Source: Verrucomicrobiota bacterium
Lineage (GTDB): Bacteria > Verrucomicrobiota > Verrucomicrobiia > Limisphaerales > UBA11358
Assembly (NCBI GenBank): GCA_050011235.1
Contig: JBEKJN010000001.1
Span: 1 to 45,366, forward strand
Direction of reading: 5' to 3'
DNA: 45,366 nucleotides
Shown here: in pieces, positions 12,928-22,621 of the stretch
Layout of the letters: each line of letters begins with the position of its first letter
How positions within the stretch are numbered: the first letter of the stretch is position 1
The notes under the pieces: generated by a model
The model's input: the letters and a program-made list of their open reading frames with translations, nothing else
Told to the model about the DNA's origin: nothing
The model's database searches: none
Position numbers and translations under genes: made by a program

Positions 12928-12987
12928 TAAACCCGTTTTCGGGATTATGCACTTGACAAGTGTAAGACAAAATGGTATATTTGAGGC

Positions 12988-13983
12988 ATGAAAACTGAAT
13001 TACTGCCAACGCCAAAAGACCTGACACTCTCGCAAGTGATGAAGCGGTTTGGTTGTGAGTCGGATGCGCGGGAATATCTTGAAGCTGTTCGCTGGCCGAA
13101 TGGCGTCGTTTGTCCGCATTGCAAAAACAGCGACCCGAATAAAATCTGGAAAATCCACGCCAACACTGCCAAGAAAATACGCCCCGGTTTGTATCGTTGT
13201 GCCGAATGCGACAAGGAATTTACCGTGACTGTCGGGACGATTTTTGAGGACTCGCATATCCCGCTCTCAAAATGGCTGGTTGCGTGGTATCTCACTGTCA
13301 GTTCCAAAAAAGGGATTAGCGCATTGCAGATTCAACGCTCGCTTGGTTTGGGTAGCTACCGGACGGCATGGATGATGATGCACAAAATCCGGCATTCCAT
13401 GAAAGACCCGGCATTCAGCGAGCCATTGGACGGCGTGTTAGAAGCGGATGAAACCTACGTCGGCGGCAAGCCGCGTCCGCAGTTTGACAAAAGTTTTCCG
13501 CCGAAATTGATTCGCCCAATCAAGAAGAAATCGCCGGTGGTTGCGCTTGTGCAGCGGGGCGGGAAAGTTCGCACAAAAGTCGTGTCGAACGTCAGCCAGA
13601 AAAACCTCAAATTGTTTCTTGGCCTGAACGCCGACCCGAATTCAACCATGAACACAGACCAAGCCCCGATTTATCATCCGATCTTGCGCGGTTTCAAGCG
13701 TCACGATGTCGTGAATCATTCTCGGTTTGAATACGCCCGCCATAATCCTGACGGCACGGTGAGCGGGGTGAATTCCGCCGAGAGCTTTTTCAGTTTGCTT
13801 AAGCGCGGTATCGTTGGTGCGTTCCATCATGTTTCGCCGGAACACTTGCACCGCTATTGTGATGAATTTGGTTTTCGCTGGGACTTCCGAAAAGTCACCG
13901 ATGGCGAGCGAATGATTGAAGGGTTGAAGCGCACGGAAGGGAAACGGCTTCTTTACAAGCAGCCAATTAGCCAAAAGTCCTAG
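12988..13983 (+). CDS. IS1595-family transposase (N-terminal zinc ribbon plus ISXO2-like DDE domain)
   Basis: Motifs ARE.LE.VRWPNGVVCPHCKN...YRCAECDKEFTVTVGTIFEDSHIPL.KW, EADETYVGGK, MNTDQAPIYH and VNHS...NSAESFFSLLKRGIVGAFHHVSPEHLHRYCDEFGFRWDFR. Confidence 0.9.
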   Translation: MKTELLPTPKDLTLSQVMKRFGCESDAREYLEAVRWPNGVVCPHCKNSDPNKIWKIHANTAKKIRPGLYRCAECDKEFTVTVGTIFEDSHIPLSKWLVAWYLTVSSKKGISALQIQRSLGLGSYRTAWMMMHKIRHSMKDPAFSEPLDGVLEADETYVGGKPRPQFDKSFPPKLIRPIKKKSPVVALVQRGGKVRTKVVSNVSQKNLKLFLGLNADPNSTMNTDQAPIYHPILRGFKRHDVVNHSRFEYARHNPDGTVSGVNSAESFFSLLKRGIVGAFHHVSPEHLHRYCDEFGFRWDFRKVTDGERMIEGLKRTEGKRLLYKQPISQKS

Positions 13984-14095
13984 TTTTCAAATTGTATCAC
14001 AAAGCTACAACTTAATATCAACTTGGACAACAAACATTGGTTTTGAACAATTATTCCTTTGAAAAAGGCCCCGGCGTGCGCCATGCTACTCAAAG

Positions 14096-14198
14096 TGGTG
14101 CGGATGGCGGGATTTGAACCCGCAAGGCCGTTTATCCTTTACTAGAGGCGGCCACTGGCTTCCAAGGCCAGAGCGTTTACCAGTTTCGCCACATCCGC
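14096..14198 (-). tRNA. class-II tRNA with a leucine-type body, anticodon UGG (proline codons), a 31-nt variable arm and an encoded CCA
   Basis: Hand fold of the reverse complement: GCGGAUG-UG-GCG-AAACUGGUAAA-CGC-U-CUGGC-CUUGGAA-GCCAG-[31 nt: UGGCCGCCUCUAGUAAAGGAUAAACGGCCUU]-GCGGG-UUCAAAU-CCCGC-CAUCCGC-A-CCA. The anticodon is at 14162-14164. The D arm closely resembles that of E. coli tRNA-Leu. Confidence 0.75.
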
Positions 14199-14206
14199 AT
14201 CGGCAG

Positions 14207-14278
14207 TGGTGGAGCTAGAGGGAATCAAACCCTCTGCGGCGCAGGTGGAAATCCGTCCGCACCTTCACAGGTAGCCCC
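14207..14278 (-). ncRNA. tRNA-Ala-like / tmRNA-TLD-like RNA: Ala-type acceptor stem (G3:U70) and a T arm, without canonical D or anticodon arms; encoded CCA
   Basis: Reverse complement: GGGGCUA-CCUGUGAA-GGUGCGG-ACGGAUUUCCAC-CUGCGCC-GCA-GAGGG-UUUGAUU-CCCUC-UAGCUCC-A-CCA. The G.U pair is between 14276 and 14213. The T loop has U instead of C56. It ends 8 nt upstream of the next tRNA gene. Confidence 0.5.
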
Positions 14279-14289
14279 GCAGTCGTATA

Positions 14290-14319
14290 ACAGCCCCGGA
14301 TGTAACAGTCCGGGGCTGT
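14290..14319 (-). terminator. strong hairpin after the cargo ORF (terminator or processing signal)
   Basis: An 11-bp stem (acagccccgga / tccggggctgt) with an 8-nt loop. On the minus strand it is followed by UUAUAC, only a weak U tract, then the tRNA-like gene. Confidence 0.4.
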
Positions 14320-14369
14320 CCAATTCTACACAGTAATATGCTTCTTTTGCTTTCAAAAGTAAACCAGAT

Positions 14370-14783
14370 TTAGGCAGCCCATGTCCACAGACCACTCTTC
14401 TCTTGGACGCGGTCTTCGTCCTTAAGGTGGTTAAGAATTCTACGGGTTGTGCCATATTTAGTGCCCGACTCAGCGGTGATTTCTTTAATGGTGGCACCGC
14501 TGCCATTTCTGTTTTTTAGGAAATCGGAAACCAGTTTCTCAGATTGCCCCTTCTTAATCCGGCCATGCGGGGTTTTCTCTATCCGCACTATTGGTTGGGG
14601 GTTTGGGGGGCCAATGATACTGCTCCTTGTATATTCAGGGCCTAAACCAAAACTCTGTTTTAATGCCTTGATCTGCTTGGAAAGAGCAGAGACTCTGTCA
14701 ATAAGCGCACGGCGCTGTCGCTCCAGAATAGTCAAAAACTCTGGGGCTGATTCTTCTGTGACTTCAACGTTCATTGTTTTCAT
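14370..14783 (-). CDS. IS cargo protein: N-terminal coiled coil plus C-terminal winged-helix-like DNA-binding domain (hypothetical)
   Basis: 137-aa ORF. ILERQRRALIDRVSALSKQIKALKQ has heptad character. The C-terminus SEKLVSDFLKNRNGSGATIKEITAESGTKYGTTRRILNHLKDEDRVQEKSGLWTW looks like a wHTH. No family name assigned. Confidence 0.6.
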   Translation of the reverse strand: MKTMNVEVTEESAPEFLTILERQRRALIDRVSALSKQIKALKQSFGLGPEYTRSSIIGPPNPQPIVRIEKTPHGRIKKGQSEKLVSDFLKNRNGSGATIKEITAESGTKYGTTRRILNHLKDEDRVQEKSGLWTWAA

Positions 14784-14980
14784 AATGTTTTTTTGGCTTA
14801 AACATCTCTGCCCAAGTTAAGAGACTTGGAAGTCCATATCAAGAAAAATTTTCGAAAAAGTTACAAAAACGATATTCCCAAATAAAATCAACGGAAATTC
14901 ACCGTCAACGTTGAGCAACGATGATTTATTCGCCACGGTGAATAAAATTTACCGCGACTTTACTGGCAAACCCAGATAAA

Positions 14981-15112
14981 ATGGCTGGCGTGAAACAAAA
15001 GCCTGAATACACAAAGCCTTGCGTTTCAATGGATTTTGACGAAGTAATGCGCCGGGTGGTGCGCGTCAAACCAGAGAAACCCAAGAAGCCAGCCAAGCGG
15101 AAACACAAGTAA
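14981..15112 (+). CDS. possible 43-aa lysine-rich small ORF inside the IS, divergent from the 137-aa ORF
   Basis: My own translation: MAGVKQKPEYTKPCVSMDFDEVMRRVVRVKPEKPKKPAKRKHK*. It is below the ORF-track size cutoff. There is no other support. Confidence 0.25.
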   Translation: MAGVKQKPEYTKPCVSMDFDEVMRRVVRVKPEKPKKPAKRKHK

Positions 15113-15377
15113 AACCGCTAGTTTGTGCCATCGTTTCCAATTTTGTCACGCTTCCACTTGTCAAGTGCATAATCCCGCCCGTTTTTGTGCCAAGCAATTG
15201 TACCAAACGGCACTCCAACTGAGCCATTCCGTCGCTTTTGGCACAACTTTTATCGCTTCTTAAAACGGGAAAAAGTTAAAATTGTCCTATGTTTACAATG
15301 GTTTTATCATCATTTCCGCTGCGCGGCATCGCCATTGCTTGGAATACAGCCGAAGCAGTGTAACTACATAGAAATTT

Positions 15378-22268: not shown

Positions 22269-22621
22269 GGGGGCGTACCGGTTTCGATCCGGGAAATGCG
22301 CCAGAGGCGGCATGCCGAGGACGATGCGTTGGCCTCGTTAATCATCGCATCAAACAAAACAGCTAACGAACAATTAGCTCTCGCGGCCTAATAGTCCGCG
22401 ACGTTCGCCGGTGGACACCTGCTACGCCGGACGAACGCCATAGCAGGCATGGCGGAACGCGGAGACCGCGCGTGGTTCGCCGAGAAAATTACATGCGGAC
22501 TAGGCAGTGCGATTCGAGTCCGGACGCCATCGCACAGCAGAAAAAATTCTCCGGACTAAGCATGTAGTCGCGGCTGGTTTATTTGCCGGGGACGCGGGTT
22601 CAACTCCCGCCGCCTCCACCA
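22269..22621 (+). ncRNA. ssrA: tmRNA (SsrA), one-piece, 353 nt
   Basis: The 5' GGGGGCG pairs with the 3' CGCCUCC-ACCA (G3:U70). The T arm is GCGGG-UUCAACU-CCCGC. The tag ORF ends ...GCU AAC GAA CAA UUA GCU CUC GCG GCC UAA UAG (ANEQLALAA**). The possible resume codon is GCA at 22347. Confidence 0.93.

What the first reader, a model, noticed from the sequence alone, without database searches (positions are those of the whole stretch)
14096..14198. Mobile-element tRNA with a leucine-type class-II body but a proline anticodon (UGG) and a 31-nt variable arm
The hand fold gives a clean cloverleaf. It has a 7-bp acceptor, U8, a 3-bp D stem with an 11-nt D loop (UG-GCG-AAACUGGUAAA-CGC, nearly the E. 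coli tRNA-Leu D arm) and a perfect 5-bp anticodon stem. The anticodon loop is CUUGGAA, so the anticodon is UGG. There is a canonical T arm (GCGGG-UUCAAAU-CCCGC), discriminator A73 and an encoded CCA. Natural tRNA-Pro is class I with a short variable loop. This RNA instead has a 31-nt variable region (stem GGCCG/CGGCC with an 18-nt cap), longer than ordinary Leu, Ser or Tyr arms. In E. coli-type systems LeuRS uses A73 and the D/T-loop architecture and does not read the anticodon. The simplest prediction is therefore a Leu-charged tRNA reading CCA/CCG, that is Pro-to-Leu recoding or mistranslation. Other possibilities are a nuclease-resistant substitute tRNA, a decoy, or a regulatory or transposition-linked RNA. 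As I recall, anticodon/identity-mismatched tRNAs are known elsewhere, for example nematode class-II tRNAs with Gly/Ile anticodons and Streptomyces tRNA-Pro variants. I know of none carried on an IS.
Basis: partly seen in the sequence, partly recalled or inferred. Interest (0 to 1): 0.9.

Follow-up and report, generated by a model that had tools for sequence, protein, structure and literature searches.

The report
Transposon-borne leucine-type tRNA reading proline codons
An intact leucine-type tRNA with a proline anticodon sits inside a small jumping gene (an IS1595-family transposon), and similar transposon-borne "wrong-anticodon" tRNAs occur in at least eight bacterial phyla, which suggests that genetic-code misreading can spread horizontally.

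Summary
Window 14099-14198 (minus strand, CCA at 14098-14096) is a clean class-II cloverleaf (Rfam tRNA 63 bits) with anticodon UGG, A73 and a 31-nt bulged variable arm.

It lies inside a complete 2,238-bp IS1595-family transposon (12940-15177). The element has 27-nt terminal inverted repeats and an 8-bp target duplication (CCCGTTTT). It also carries the transposase, an alanine-acceptor tRNA-like RNA, a small winged-helix protein and a 43-aa ORF.

It is not a one-off:
- 66 Leu-bodied tRNAs with UGG were found in 65 species genomes, with strong covariation.
- 43 of these loci have the same transposase family nearby, and 21 are enclosed by inverted repeats plus exact 8-bp duplications.
- Sister elements carry the same scaffold with UUA (ochre), UCC, AGG, GGA or GUC. 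Within or directly beside an element none has a leucine anticodon.
- The tRNA is the best-conserved segment of the element (89% against 78% for the transposase).

The best reading is a LeuRS-charged missense suppressor (Pro to Leu) carried as regulated transposon cargo. Charging and decoding are inferred, not shown. The closest precedent is the acidobacterial allo-tRNAs and "irregular tRNA polycistrons". I found no description of this family or of its IS linkage.

The parts
12932..12939 (.). Left copy of the 8-bp target-site duplication CCCGTTTT
   Evidence: Read directly from the sequence. It is identical to 15178-15185.
12940..12966 (+). Left terminal inverted repeat (IRL), CGGGATTATGCACTTGACAAGTGTAAG. 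It contains the -35 box of a near-consensus promoter (TTGACA-17-TATATT, 12953-12981) for the transposase.
   Evidence: Inverted-repeat search. Promoter scan gives 11/12 matches. The same repeat consensus occurs in 21 tRNA-bearing and 57 transposase-anchored elements.
12988..13983 (+). IS1595-family DDE transposase, 331 aa, with an N-terminal zinc ribbon
   Evidence: Pfam DDE_Tnp_IS1595 1e-30 and Zn_ribbon_IS1595 9e-13. NCBIfam NF033547 scores 180 bits against a cut-off of 75.
14096..14198 (-). Class-II, Leu-bodied tRNA with anticodon UGG, A73, encoded CCA and a 31-nt bulged variable arm (the finding itself)
   Evidence: Rfam 63 bits, fold, family covariation. It is the most conserved segment against the sister element L298, at 88.8%.
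14207..14278 (-). tRNA-like RNA with a tRNA-Ala-type acceptor stem (GGGGCUA/UAGCUCC, G3:U70), A73, CCA and a T arm. It has no D arm or normal anticodon arm. It ends 8 nt upstream of the tRNA.
   Evidence: Weak tmRNA-TLD-type Rfam hit, E = 1.7e-6. Folds. Sister elements L298 and L294 keep G3:U70, the acceptor stem and the T arm through compensatory changes, while the middle part differs.
14290..14319 (-). Perfect 11-bp GC-rich hairpin between the winged-helix gene and the tRNA tandem. Equivalent hairpins lie 10-20 nt upstream of the tRNA in most relatives.
   Evidence: the repeat finder I6, fold z = -5, upstream sequences of 66 relatives.
14370..14783 (-). 137-aa protein with an N-terminal long helix and a C-terminal winged helix-turn-helix. 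It is on the same strand as the two RNAs and upstream of them.
   Evidence: Only sub-threshold HTH Pfam hits. AlphaFold2 model pLDDT is 85-90 in the C-terminal domain, and the best PDB matches are winged-helix domains. It is fast-evolving, with only 5 homologues, all in sister elements. Analogous small winged-helix ORFs occur in other elements.
14981..15112 (+). 43-aa basic ORF (MAGVKQKPEYTKPCVSMDFDEVMRRVVRVKPEKPKKPAKRKHK), divergent from the winged-helix gene
   Evidence: Called in the public annotation of the same contig. It is 79.5% identical to the L298 copy. A similar motif (PMPFEQAV.GLL.VDP) occurs in L068 and L111.
15151..15177 (-). Right terminal inverted repeat (IRR), matching IRL at 24 of 27 positions
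15178..15185 (.). Right copy of the 8-bp target-site duplication CCCGTTTT

Best explanation
SHOWN. The tRNA is a passenger gene of a complete 2.24-kb IS1595-family transposon (12940-15177). It belongs to a widespread family of transposon-borne tRNAs that keep a bacterial tRNA-Leu body: 7/5 acceptor/T architecture, a Leu-type D arm with G18G19, a class-II arm and A73. These tRNAs carry non-leucine anticodons, UGG by far the most often, and also UUA, UCC, AGG, GGA and GUC.

INFERRED. Bacterial LeuRS recognises A73 and the tRNA's tertiary architecture and ignores the anticodon. The host LeuRS would therefore charge this RNA with leucine. After RNase P/CCA-end maturation and EF-Tu delivery it would read CCA/CCG (possibly all CCN) as leucine. 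That makes it a missense suppressor. Its UUA sisters would be ochre suppressors.

It appears to be co-transcribed with the upstream winged-helix gene, through or after a strong hairpin. No sigma-70-type promoter was detected on its strand in the window, and in most relatives the hairpin ends only 10-20 nt before the tRNA. Expression is therefore probably low and under the control of that protein, which would make a potentially toxic tRNA tolerable.

The tRNA is not needed for transposition as such. What the element or the host gains from it is unknown. Candidates are conditional mistranslation, toxin-like stabilisation, or defence.
For: Real tRNA:
- Rfam 63 bits and a cloverleaf minimum-free-energy fold.
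- 64-sequence alignment with 96% pairing, 444 compensatory cells, 0/500 shuffles.

Cargo of an IS:
- Inverted repeats plus an exact 8-bp duplication in the window and in 20 further genomes.
- The transposase is IS1595 family.
- 43 of 65 genome loci have a homologous transposase, and it is the only recurrent neighbour.
- The element has 48% GC against 56% for the window.

Leu body:
- The Leu D-arm search pattern also retrieved genuine intron-containing tRNA-Leu(UAA) genes.
- The family covariance model scores a genuine tRNA-Leu(CAA) at 79 bits, but class-II tRNA-Ser at about 36 bits.
- A73 occurs in 65 of 66 members.

The anticodon mismatch is the selected feature:
- Among anticodon-blind, transposase-anchored loci the Leu-bodied tRNAs carry UGG x10, AGG x2, UUA x2, GUC and GGA. 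The only Leu anticodon (CAA, L199) lies about 4 kb from the transposase and looks like an ordinary tRNA-Leu.
- The closest sister elements carry UGG (L298), UUA (L294/295/297) or UUA+UCC (L299/300) on near-identical scaffolds.

Purifying selection: against L298 the tRNA is 88.8% identical, compared with transposase 77.8%, winged-helix gene 64.9% and spacers 50-63%.

Not required for transposition: only 6 of 57 complete elements of this transposase clade carry such a tRNA.

Published precedents:
- LeuRS ignores the anticodon, and engineered tRNA-Leu(UGG) mistranslates and is toxic in yeast (PMC11028032).
- Acidobacterial allo-tRNAs with mismatched anticodons do mistranslate in E. coli (PMC5389517).
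Against: - There is no direct evidence of transcription, processing, aminoacylation or ribosomal use.
- A leucine-for-proline tRNA should be strongly deleterious. Yet the family persists in many lineages, including a Tpase-less, vertically inherited copy in two Tepidiformaceae species.
- Position 37 is A in the window tRNA and in 46 of 66 relatives. CCN-reading tRNAs normally have m1G37.
- Two relatives have C33 instead of the universal U33.
- The 31-nt bulged variable arm has no counterpart in ordinary tRNA-Leu, and its effect on LeuRS, EF-Tu or the ribosome is unknown.
- Some irregular tRNAs in the closest published system were charged but not used in translation in E. coli (PMC5389517).
- No codon signal was found in the element's own transposase genes: Pro codons at conserved hydrophobic columns are rare and are not CCA-biased.
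Confidence: 0.5

Rival explanations
1. A tRNA-shaped RNA that does not decode. It could be a regulatory, decoy or toxin-like RNA. For example, it might be charged or uncharged but excluded from translation; it might sequester LeuRS, EF-Tu or a modification enzyme; it might signal through the ribosomal A site; or it might be bound by the element's winged-helix protein through the bulged variable arm.
For: - The unusual conserved arm architecture (outer stem, inner 3-5-bp stem, 4-5-nt A-rich 3' bulge) is kept by covariation in 21 long-arm members.
- A37 and occasional C33.
- The upstream partner is clearly not a decoder in the window.
- Published irregular acidobacterial tRNAs that were charged but not translated, and allo-tRNA(UAU) species judged non-translational and linked to transposable elements or TA systems.
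- The winged-helix domain's best structural matches include nucleic-acid binders of both DNA and RNA.
Against: - Every feature needed for the L-shape and for processing and charging is conserved (T54-Psi55-C56 loop, G18G19, A73, 7/5 stems). So is a canonical 7-nt anticodon loop with U33 in nearly all members.
- Two thirds of the family have ordinary-length Leu arms.
- The spectrum of anticodons (Pro, Gly, Ser, Asp, ochre) looks like a suppressor series rather than one RNA-RNA pairing partner.
Confidence: 0.25
2. A genuine, harmless proline tRNA in an unusual class-II body. ProRS would charge it through G35, G36 and A73, and it would simply supplement CCR decoding.
For: - UGG/AGG dominate the anticodon spectrum.
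- A73 is shared with bacterial tRNA-Pro.
- Six relatives have C1:G72, and 20 have G37, as bacterial tRNA-Pro do (tRNA-Pro identity rules are from established knowledge).
- A Tpase-less, syntenic copy in two Tepidiformaceae species has C1:G72, A73 and G37 and could be domesticated.
- ARAGORN labels short-armed members tRNA-Pro.
Against: - The window tRNA and 55 of 66 relatives have G1:C72, not C1:G72, and most have A37.
- The same scaffold in the closest sister elements bears UUA and UCC. ProRS could not recognise these, so the charging enzyme of the family is anticodon-independent.
- Class-II synthetases such as ProRS approach from the variable-arm side, where a long arm is expected to clash. 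This is established knowledge and was not tested here.
- Engineered class-II tRNAs with UGG are not rescued by ProRS in yeast.
Confidence: 0.12
3. The tRNA serves transposition itself. It could be an RNA cofactor or guide for the transposase. Alternatively the gene could act as a cis-acting DNA site, or as an antisense or processing module that limits transposase expression, since it is convergent with the transposase stop codon and within 10-160 nt of it.
For: - A conserved convergent layout occurs in 17 loci including the window.
- Read-through from the tRNA would be antisense to the transposase 3' end.
- The tRNA is the best-conserved segment.
Against: - Only about 10% of complete elements of this transposase clade have such a tRNA.
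- Orientation and distance vary in the other loci.
- 22 loci keep the tRNA without any transposase nearby.
- A structural or processing role would not explain why no tRNA within or directly beside an element has a Leu anticodon.
Confidence: 0.06
4. A host tRNA-Leu gene that was captured by accident and is now decaying (a pseudogene), or an IS that merely inserted next to a pre-existing tRNA.
For: tRNA genes are common insertion targets. The neighbouring tRNA-like RNA is degenerate.
Against: - The inverted repeats and target duplication enclose the tRNA.
- All stems are intact, with compensatory evolution.
- It has the highest conservation within the element.
- The acceptor stem is identical and the sequence very similar in an alphaproteobacterial copy (L015), although the elements differ.
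Confidence: 0.03

Closest known systems
Allo-tRNAs and 'polycistrons of irregular tRNAs' of Acidobacteria and soil/peat metatranscriptomes (Mukai et al., Nucleic Acids Res 2017, PMC5389517)
   Same: - Bacterial tRNAs, many from acidobacteria and peat or forest soil, whose anticodon does not match their identity elements.
- Long variable arms.
- Tandem irregular tRNAs, proposed to be missense or nonsense suppressors.
- Noted near transposon-related genes and toxin-antitoxin systems.
- Some carry G3:U70 Ala identity, like the upstream partner here.
   Different: - Allo-tRNAs have 8/4 or 9/3 acceptor/T structures and Ser (or Ala) identity. This tRNA is 7/5 with a Leu body and A73.
- The main text of that paper does not mention UGG or proline, and LeuRS does not occur in it.
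- That paper does not define a transposon with inverted repeats and a target duplication, and does not link the tRNAs to IS1595 transposases.
- Its supplementary sequences could not be read.
Canonical bacterial tRNA-Leu, and classical tRNA-Leu-derived suppressors
   Same: Same body: a class-II arm, a Leu-type D arm, and A73. The family covariance model scores a genuine tRNA-Leu(CAA) within the family's own range. The UUA sisters differ from tRNA-Leu(UAA) by one anticodon base.
   Different: - The anticodon is UGG.
- The variable arm is 31 nt with an inner helix and a 3' bulge, against 13-20 nt in most relatives.
- A13/A22 replaces the G13/G22 of the genuine tRNA-Leu genes retrieved here.
- It is encoded on a transposon, not in the core genome.
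Nematode nev-tRNAs (class-II tRNAs with Gly/Ile anticodons charged with Leu) and engineered tRNA-Leu/tRNA-Ser(UGG) mistranslators in yeast (PMC11028032, PMC6827378)
   Same: They work the same way: an anticodon-blind synthetase charges a class-II tRNA that reads codons of another amino acid. One sister element even carries the Gly anticodon UCC.
   Different: These are eukaryotic or synthetic, are not mobile, and are not homologous. The knowledge of nev-tRNAs is from memory.
Streptomyces tRNA-ProA / ProRSx mistranslation system
   Same: A natural bacterial tRNA with an identity/anticodon mismatch that gives deliberate missense decoding.
   Different: The logic is the reverse: a Pro body with a non-Pro anticodon, plus a dedicated synthetase. 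No synthetase gene accompanies the tRNA here. Knowledge of that system is from memory.
IS1595-family insertion sequences with passenger genes
   Same: A zinc-ribbon DDE transposase, terminal inverted repeats, 8-bp target duplications, and extra cargo in most members of this clade.
   Different: I found no report of a tRNA as IS1595 cargo. The cargo set here is two tRNA-type RNAs, a winged-helix protein and a 43-aa ORF.

Membership tests
tRNA (Rfam RF00005) | Cloverleaf with acceptor, D, anticodon and T arms scoring above the curated threshold | tested here: met
   63 bits against a gathering score of 29, full length, no non-canonical pairs. Covariation in 64 relatives.
Bacterial tRNA-Leu | Class-II variable arm, Leu-type D arm (3-bp stem, G18G19, long loop) and discriminator A73 | tested here: met
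   The D-arm pattern co-retrieves genuine tRNA-Leu(UAA) intron genes. The family model scores tRNA-Leu(CAA) at 79 bits against tRNA-Ser at about 36 bits.
Bacterial tRNA-Leu | Leucine anticodon (NAG or YAA) | tested here: not met
   The anticodon loop is CUUGGAA, giving UGG.
Bacterial tRNA-Leu | Aminoacylation by LeuRS | not testable with these tools
   Needs biochemical assay. It is inferred from the identity elements only.
Bacterial tRNA-Pro | Anticodon NGG with G35 and G36 | tested here: met
   UGG.
Bacterial tRNA-Pro | Class-I body (4-5-nt variable loop), C1:G72, G37 | tested here: not met
   31-nt variable region, G1:C72, A37. The tRNA-Pro rules are from established knowledge.
Allo-tRNA (Mukai 2017) | 12-bp acceptor branch arranged 8/4 or 9/3 | tested here: not met
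   The arrangement is 7/5.
Allo-tRNA (Mukai 2017) | Long variable arm and an anticodon that does not match the identity elements | tested here: met
IS1595-family insertion sequence | DDE transposase of the IS1595 type with an N-terminal zinc ribbon | tested here: met
   Pfam PF12762 and PF12760. NCBIfam NF033547 at 180 bits.
IS1595-family insertion sequence | Terminal inverted repeats and an 8-bp direct target duplication flanking the whole unit | tested here: met
   IRL 12940-12966 and IRR 15151-15177 match at 24 of 27 positions. CCCGTTTT is duplicated. The same holds in 20 other tRNA-bearing elements and 57 transposase-anchored elements.
IS1595-family insertion sequence | Demonstrated mobility (empty site, or several copies in one genome) | tested here: inconclusive
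   No empty site was found. The same insertion is present in all peat samples that carry the flanking gene. A closely related element with identical terminal repeats sits in a different context (L298).
tmRNA (for the upstream tRNA-like RNA, 14207-14278) | tRNA-like domain with G3:U70, together with an mRNA-like tag region and pseudoknots | tested here: not met
   Only the acceptor and T-arm ends match (21.9 bits against a gathering score of 47, with 328 model positions skipped). The genuine tmRNA is at 22269-22621.

The most novel reading that the evidence does not exclude
IS1595-family transposons disseminate deliberately 'miscoding' tRNAs across bacterial phyla. These are Leu-charged tRNAs that read Pro, Gly, Ser, Asp or ochre codons, sometimes paired with Ala-acceptor tRNA-like RNAs. 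They would act as a regulated toxic cargo: the winged-helix protein keeps the tRNA operon nearly silent, and de-repression floods the proteome with Leu-for-Pro errors. In other words, this would be a tRNA-based toxin, abortive-infection or stress module that also stabilises the element. Mistranslation would then be a horizontally mobile, selectable trait rather than an accident.
Probability: 0.2. Interest if true: 0.92.

Novelty: new variant of a known kind. Interest (0 to 1): 0.8.

Why it matters
Natural tRNAs whose anticodon contradicts their identity are rare and mostly anecdotal. Here one turns out to represent a large, structurally conserved family that travels on a defined transposon through at least eight phyla.

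If these tRNAs are charged and used, several things follow:
- Bacterial genetic-code fidelity can be altered by a 2-kb mobile element.
- Proline-to-leucine (and stop-to-leucine) decoding is a transferable trait.
- Insertion sequences can carry functional RNA cargo.

Practical consequences:
- Standard tRNA finders either miss these genes or label them tRNA-Pro. This distorts tRNA inventories and code inference in metagenome-assembled genomes.
- The bulged long-arm Leu scaffolds are candidate parts for genetic-code engineering.
- A cultured carrier (Mesorhizobium mediterraneum USDA 3392, L074) makes the question directly testable.

Tried and rejected
- ARAGORN on the window found only the tmRNA. 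It misses long-armed members.
- blastn of the tRNA against E. coli genomes and PLSDB plasmids found nothing.
- I tested whether the transposase genes need the tRNA, that is, whether CCA codons sit at conserved Leu or hydrophobic columns. There was no signal.
- I looked for a dedicated synthetase or any other recurrent neighbour. Only the transposase recurs.
- PADLOC defence models gave no hit for any element protein.
- Pfam and NCBIfam give only sub-threshold HTH hits for the winged-helix protein. Structure search shows a generic winged helix and does not separate DNA from RNA binding.
- I looked for an empty insertion site through the flanking phosphoribosyltransferase gene. All contigs carry the IS.
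- The plasmid hits to the transposase that were scanned with the family model (L290-L293) contain no family tRNA.
- A regular expression for the 43-aa ORF motif was too strict, giving 3 of 21 elements.
- 'TTGTA' motifs seen downstream of many relatives turned out to be the antisense of the transposase C-terminus, not IS ends.
- The idea that the UGG loop pairs with tRNA CCA ends was dropped, because sister elements carry unrelated anticodons.
- The host phylum was not determined. The closest transposases are in Verrucomicrobiae MAGs.
- The supplementary sequences of Mukai et al. are not held, so identity with their 'tRNA0/1/2' polycistrons could not be checked.
Full report
**1. The observation**

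The reverse complement of window 14096-14198 reads:
GCGGAUGUGGCGAAACUGGUAAACGCUCUGGCCUUGGAAGCCAGUGGCCGCCUCUAGUAAAGGAUAAACGGCCUUGCGGGUUCAAAUCCCGCCAUCCGCACCA.

Rfam's tRNA model matches 14099-14198(-) from end to end at 63 bits (threshold 29, E = 1.8e-11), with no non-standard pair.
- a 7-bp acceptor stem;
- a GCG/CGC D stem, whose loop contains G18G19;
- anticodon stem CUGGC/GCCAG;
- a 7-nt loop CUUGGAA, which gives anticodon UGG with A37;
- a 31-nt variable region;
- T arm GCGGG-UUCAAAU-CCCGC;
- A73 and an encoded CCA.

ARAGORN misses the gene. It calls shorter-armed relatives 'tRNA-Pro(tgg)'.

**2. The tRNA lies inside a bona fide transposon**

A 331-aa IS1595-family transposase lies at 12988-13983(+). 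The evidence is Pfam DDE_Tnp_IS1595 plus Zn_ribbon_IS1595 and NCBIfam NF033547 at 180 bits. It is convergent with the tRNA.

A 27-nt sequence, CGGGATTATGCACTTGACAAGTGTAAG, sits at 12940-12966. It recurs inverted at 15151-15177, matching at 24 of 27 positions. Both copies are flanked by the same 8 bp, CCCGTTTT (12932-12939 and 15178-15185). An 8-bp duplication is the hallmark of IS1595 elements.

The unit is 2,238 bp long. It has 48% G+C, against 56% for the window. In order, it contains:
- IRL, which carries a near-consensus promoter (TTGACA-17-TATATT);
- the transposase (+);
- the tRNA (-);
- a second tRNA-like RNA (-);
- a strong hairpin;
- a 137-aa winged-helix protein (-);
- a 43-aa basic ORF (+);
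- IRR.

The same insertion is present in peat-soil metagenome contigs from several samples. No empty site was found.

**3. It is one member of a large family**

One scan of 185,579 species genomes used a pattern combining the Leu-type D arm with a UGG anticodon.

After parsing, 66 hits are complete class-II tRNAs with UGG. The rest fall into two groups:
- tRNA-Leu(UAA) genes split by a group I intron, which shows that the D-arm signature is that of genuine tRNA-Leu;
- repeated tRNA-Leu 5' halves in Ruminococcus-type contigs.

The 66 come from Acidobacteriota, Alpha-, Beta- and Gammaproteobacteria, Planctomycetota, Verrucomicrobiota, Gemmatimonadota, Chloroflexota, Actinomycetota and others. 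They include the cultured Mesorhizobium mediterraneum USDA 3392.

An alignment of 64 of them shows 96% standard pairs and 444 cells with changes on both sides. All five helices covary, and no shuffle of 500 reaches the observed values.

Family statistics:
- A73 in 65 of 66 members.
- G1:C72 in 55, C1:G72 in 6.
- Position 37 is A in 46 and G in 20.
- The variable region is bimodal: 13-20 nt in 45 members and 27-36 nt in 21.

The long arms share a covarying architecture. An outer 5-7-bp stem runs into an inner 3-5-bp stem, with a 4-5-nt A-rich bulge on the 3' side. The window's arm is therefore a selected structure, not a decayed insertion.

**4. Association with the transposon**

In 43 of the 65 genome loci a homologue of the window's transposase (28-57% identity) lies within 3.5 kb. 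It is the only recurrent neighbouring gene. The commonest layout, in 17 loci including the window, puts the tRNA antisense and 10-160 nt beyond the transposase stop codon.

A stringent screen required matching 18-nt terminal repeats and an exact 8-bp duplication. It finds complete 2.2-3.9-kb elements enclosing the tRNA in 21 of the 66 loci screened (the 65 genome loci plus the window). The repeat consensus is CGGAAGTATGTACTTGAC. The tRNA is thus cargo. It is not an insertion target.

Conversely, 160 loci were fetched by transposase similarity alone, from metagenomes and IMG/VR. Of these, 57 yielded complete elements of 1.15-4.15 kb, and only 6 of the 57 contain such a tRNA. The tRNA is therefore optional for this transposase clade. 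This argues against a role in transposition chemistry.

**5. The anticodon is not fixed, but none within or directly beside an element is a leucine anticodon**

A covariance model of the family was run on the anticodon-blind loci. The Leu-bodied tRNAs it found next to the transposase carry:
- UGG, ten times (two of these with C33);
- AGG, twice;
- UUA, twice;
- GUC, once;
- GGA, once.

Two class-I-sized tRNAs that also carry UGG occupy the same kind of position beside the transposase. The only Leu anticodon (CAA, L199) is about 4 kb from the transposase and looks like an ordinary tRNA-Leu.

The winged-helix protein has only five homologues, and all of them are in sister elements:
- L298 (58% identity) has the same terminal repeats. 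It carries an Ala-acceptor tRNA-like RNA plus a long-armed tRNA(UGG).
- L294/295/297 carry the same scaffold with anticodon UUA, the ochre-suppressor type.
- L299/300 carry two Leu-bodied tRNAs in tandem, with UUA and UCC.

Between the window element and L298, identity by segment is as follows:

| Segment | Identity |
|---|---|
| tRNA(UGG) | 88.8% |
| 43-aa ORF | 79.5% |
| Transposase | 77.8% |
| Winged-helix gene | 64.9% |
| Ala-acceptor tRNA-like RNA | 61.4% |
| Spacers | 50-63% |

The tRNA is the most conserved segment.

**6. What it most likely does**

Two things are conserved: the tRNA-Leu body, and the absence of a Leu anticodon. The only synthetase expected to charge UGG, UUA, UCC, AGG, GGA and GUC versions of one scaffold is one that ignores the anticodon. 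LeuRS has that property, and its main determinants (A73 and the D/T-loop architecture) are all present. The LeuRS rules are established knowledge, restated in PMC11028032.

The family model also scores a genuine tRNA-Leu(CAA) at 79 bits, inside the family's own range. Class-II tRNA-Ser scores about 36 bits.

My best-supported mechanism is therefore a leucine-accepting missense suppressor that reads CCA/CCG, with ochre and other suppressors as sisters.

Engineered tRNA-Leu(UGG) is among the most toxic anticodon variants in yeast, so expression must be limited. The gene has no recognisable promoter of its own on the minus strand. It follows the winged-helix gene and a strong hairpin, an arrangement seen in most relatives. 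This suggests low, co-regulated read-through expression.

The AlphaFold2 model of the protein has a long N-terminal helix and a confident C-terminal winged helix. Its best PDB matches are generic winged-helix nucleic-acid binders: Z-alpha domains, the IclR type, and RPC39.

In the host genes of the window, CCG is the main proline codon (49 of 79) and CCA is rare (7 of 79).

All steps from charging onward are inferred.

**7. Rivals**

*(a) A non-decoding tRNA-shaped RNA.* In favour are the bulged arm, A37, occasional C33, and the published observation that some irregular acidobacterial tRNAs are charged but not used. Against it are the full conservation of decoding-competent features and the suppressor-like anticodon series.

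*(b) A true tRNA-Pro in a class-II body.* This is disfavoured by G1:C72, by A37, and by the UUA/UCC sisters. A Tpase-less, syntenic copy with C1:G72 and G37 in two Tepidiformaceae species could be a domesticated exception.

*(c) A transposition cofactor or antisense module.* This is disfavoured by the 10% occurrence and by the variable layout.

*(d) A pseudogene or a mere insertion target.* This is contradicted.

A test for self-dependence, looking for Pro codons at conserved hydrophobic columns of the transposases, was negative.

**8. The upstream partner**

Window 14207-14278(-) has the acceptor stem of tRNA-Ala (GGGGCUA/UAGCUCC, G3:U70), A73, CCA and a T arm. In place of D and anticodon arms it has a connector and a long hairpin. 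L298 and L294 keep G3:U70, the acceptor stem and the T arm through compensatory changes. Their middle parts differ, and L298's ends in a CUUUAAA loop.

Other elements have a class-I-sized tRNA in this position: UUG in L054, GCU in L040, and AAG with G3:U70 in L105. It may be an AlaRS substrate. Its function is unknown.

**9. Comparison with what is known**

The nearest literature is Mukai et al. 2017 (PMC5389517). That paper describes allo-tRNAs with mismatched anticodons and 'polycistrons of irregular tRNAs' in peat and forest metatranscriptomes. They are probably acidobacterial, were proposed to be missense or nonsense suppressors, and are linked to toxin-antitoxin systems or transposable elements.

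This tRNA fails the defining 8/4 or 9/3 feature of allo-tRNAs and has Leu identity, not Ser or Ala. The main text of that paper does not mention UGG or proline, and LeuRS does not occur in it. It also defines no IS.

The tRNA works like nematode nev-tRNAs and like engineered tRNA-Leu/Ser(UGG) mistranslators. It is the mirror image of Streptomyces tRNA-ProA.

Eight literature searches found no description of IS1595-borne tRNAs or of natural bacterial tRNA-Leu(UGG).

I rate it a new variant of a known kind (identity/anticodon-mismatched bacterial tRNAs). The new elements are the Leu/Pro combination, the bulged arm, and above all the systematic carriage by a defined transposon family across phyla.

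**10. Verdict**

- The functional claim (Leu charging, Pro-to-Leu decoding) is the best explanation at about 0.5 confidence, and is untested.
- Interest is high (0.8).

Noticed in passing
window 14207-14278 (-): A D-armless tRNA-like RNA with a tRNA-Ala acceptor stem (G3:U70), A73, CCA and a T arm ends 8 nt upstream of the tRNA(UGG). Sister elements keep the acceptor/T minihelix through compensatory changes, while the middle part drifts. It may be an AlaRS substrate.
   Followed up: partly
window 22269-22621 (+): A canonical one-piece tmRNA gene (Rfam 160 bits) with tag peptide ANEQLALAA lies about 7 kb from the element. It is unrelated to the tRNA-like RNA in the IS.
   Followed up: no
window 12953-12981 (+): The left inverted repeat contains a near-consensus sigma-70 promoter (TTGACA, 17 nt, TATATT, with TG) ending 7 nt before the transposase ATG. 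The TTGACA core is conserved in the terminal repeats of nearly all related elements.
   Followed up: partly
L002 1-1265 (peat contig), aligned to window 13356-14968: A second contig shares the transposase 3' part, both RNAs and the winged-helix gene at 99.75% identity. It then diverges at window 14968 into a 427-aa gene and has no right inverted repeat. It is a rearranged or truncated copy, or a chimeric assembly.
   Followed up: partly
L052, L080, L099, L122 (Lachnospiraceae, Ruminococcus and Oscillospiraceae MAG contigs): Up to six copies per contig of a tRNA-Leu 5' half (GCGGGTATGGCGGAAYTGGCAGACGC...GGATTTGGGCAG...ACTACAGTGGAG) are each followed by different sequence. This is an unexplained repeat family built on half a tRNA.
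   Followed up: no
L017, L022, L030, L037, L041-L043, L049, L050 and others: Many tRNA-Leu(UAA) genes interrupted by a group I intron after U34 were picked up because the intron starts with GG. L017 was confirmed as RF00028. They occur in Alpha- and Gammaproteobacteria, Eremiobacterota, Acidobacteria and Cytophagales.
   Followed up: partly
L283 5149-5331 (IMG/VR contig), inside a 2,366-bp IS: A Leu-bodied tRNA with intact acceptor, D and T arms carries an insertion of about 100 nt from the anticodon region onward. The IS that holds it belongs to the same clade.
   Followed up: no
L089 5716-5800 and L092 5828-5912 (two Tepidiformaceae genomes): A syntenic chromosomal copy of a class-II tRNA(UGG), with no transposase nearby, has C1:G72, A73 and G37, which are the features of bacterial tRNA-Pro identity. 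It may be a domesticated member that is charged with proline.
   Followed up: partly
L040 4115-6895 (Phycisphaerales MAG element): This tRNA(UGG)-bearing IS also carries a 75-nt tRNA with the Ser anticodon GCU, a DUF3800-like ORF and a DUF3800-IX RNA motif (Rfam 62.8 bits). Cargo is therefore modular.
   Followed up: no
L131 1112-1187 and L179 3861-3934 (metagenome contigs): Class-I-sized tRNAs that also carry anticodon UGG sit directly beside transposases of the same clade. UGG therefore recurs on more than one tRNA body type.
   Followed up: partly
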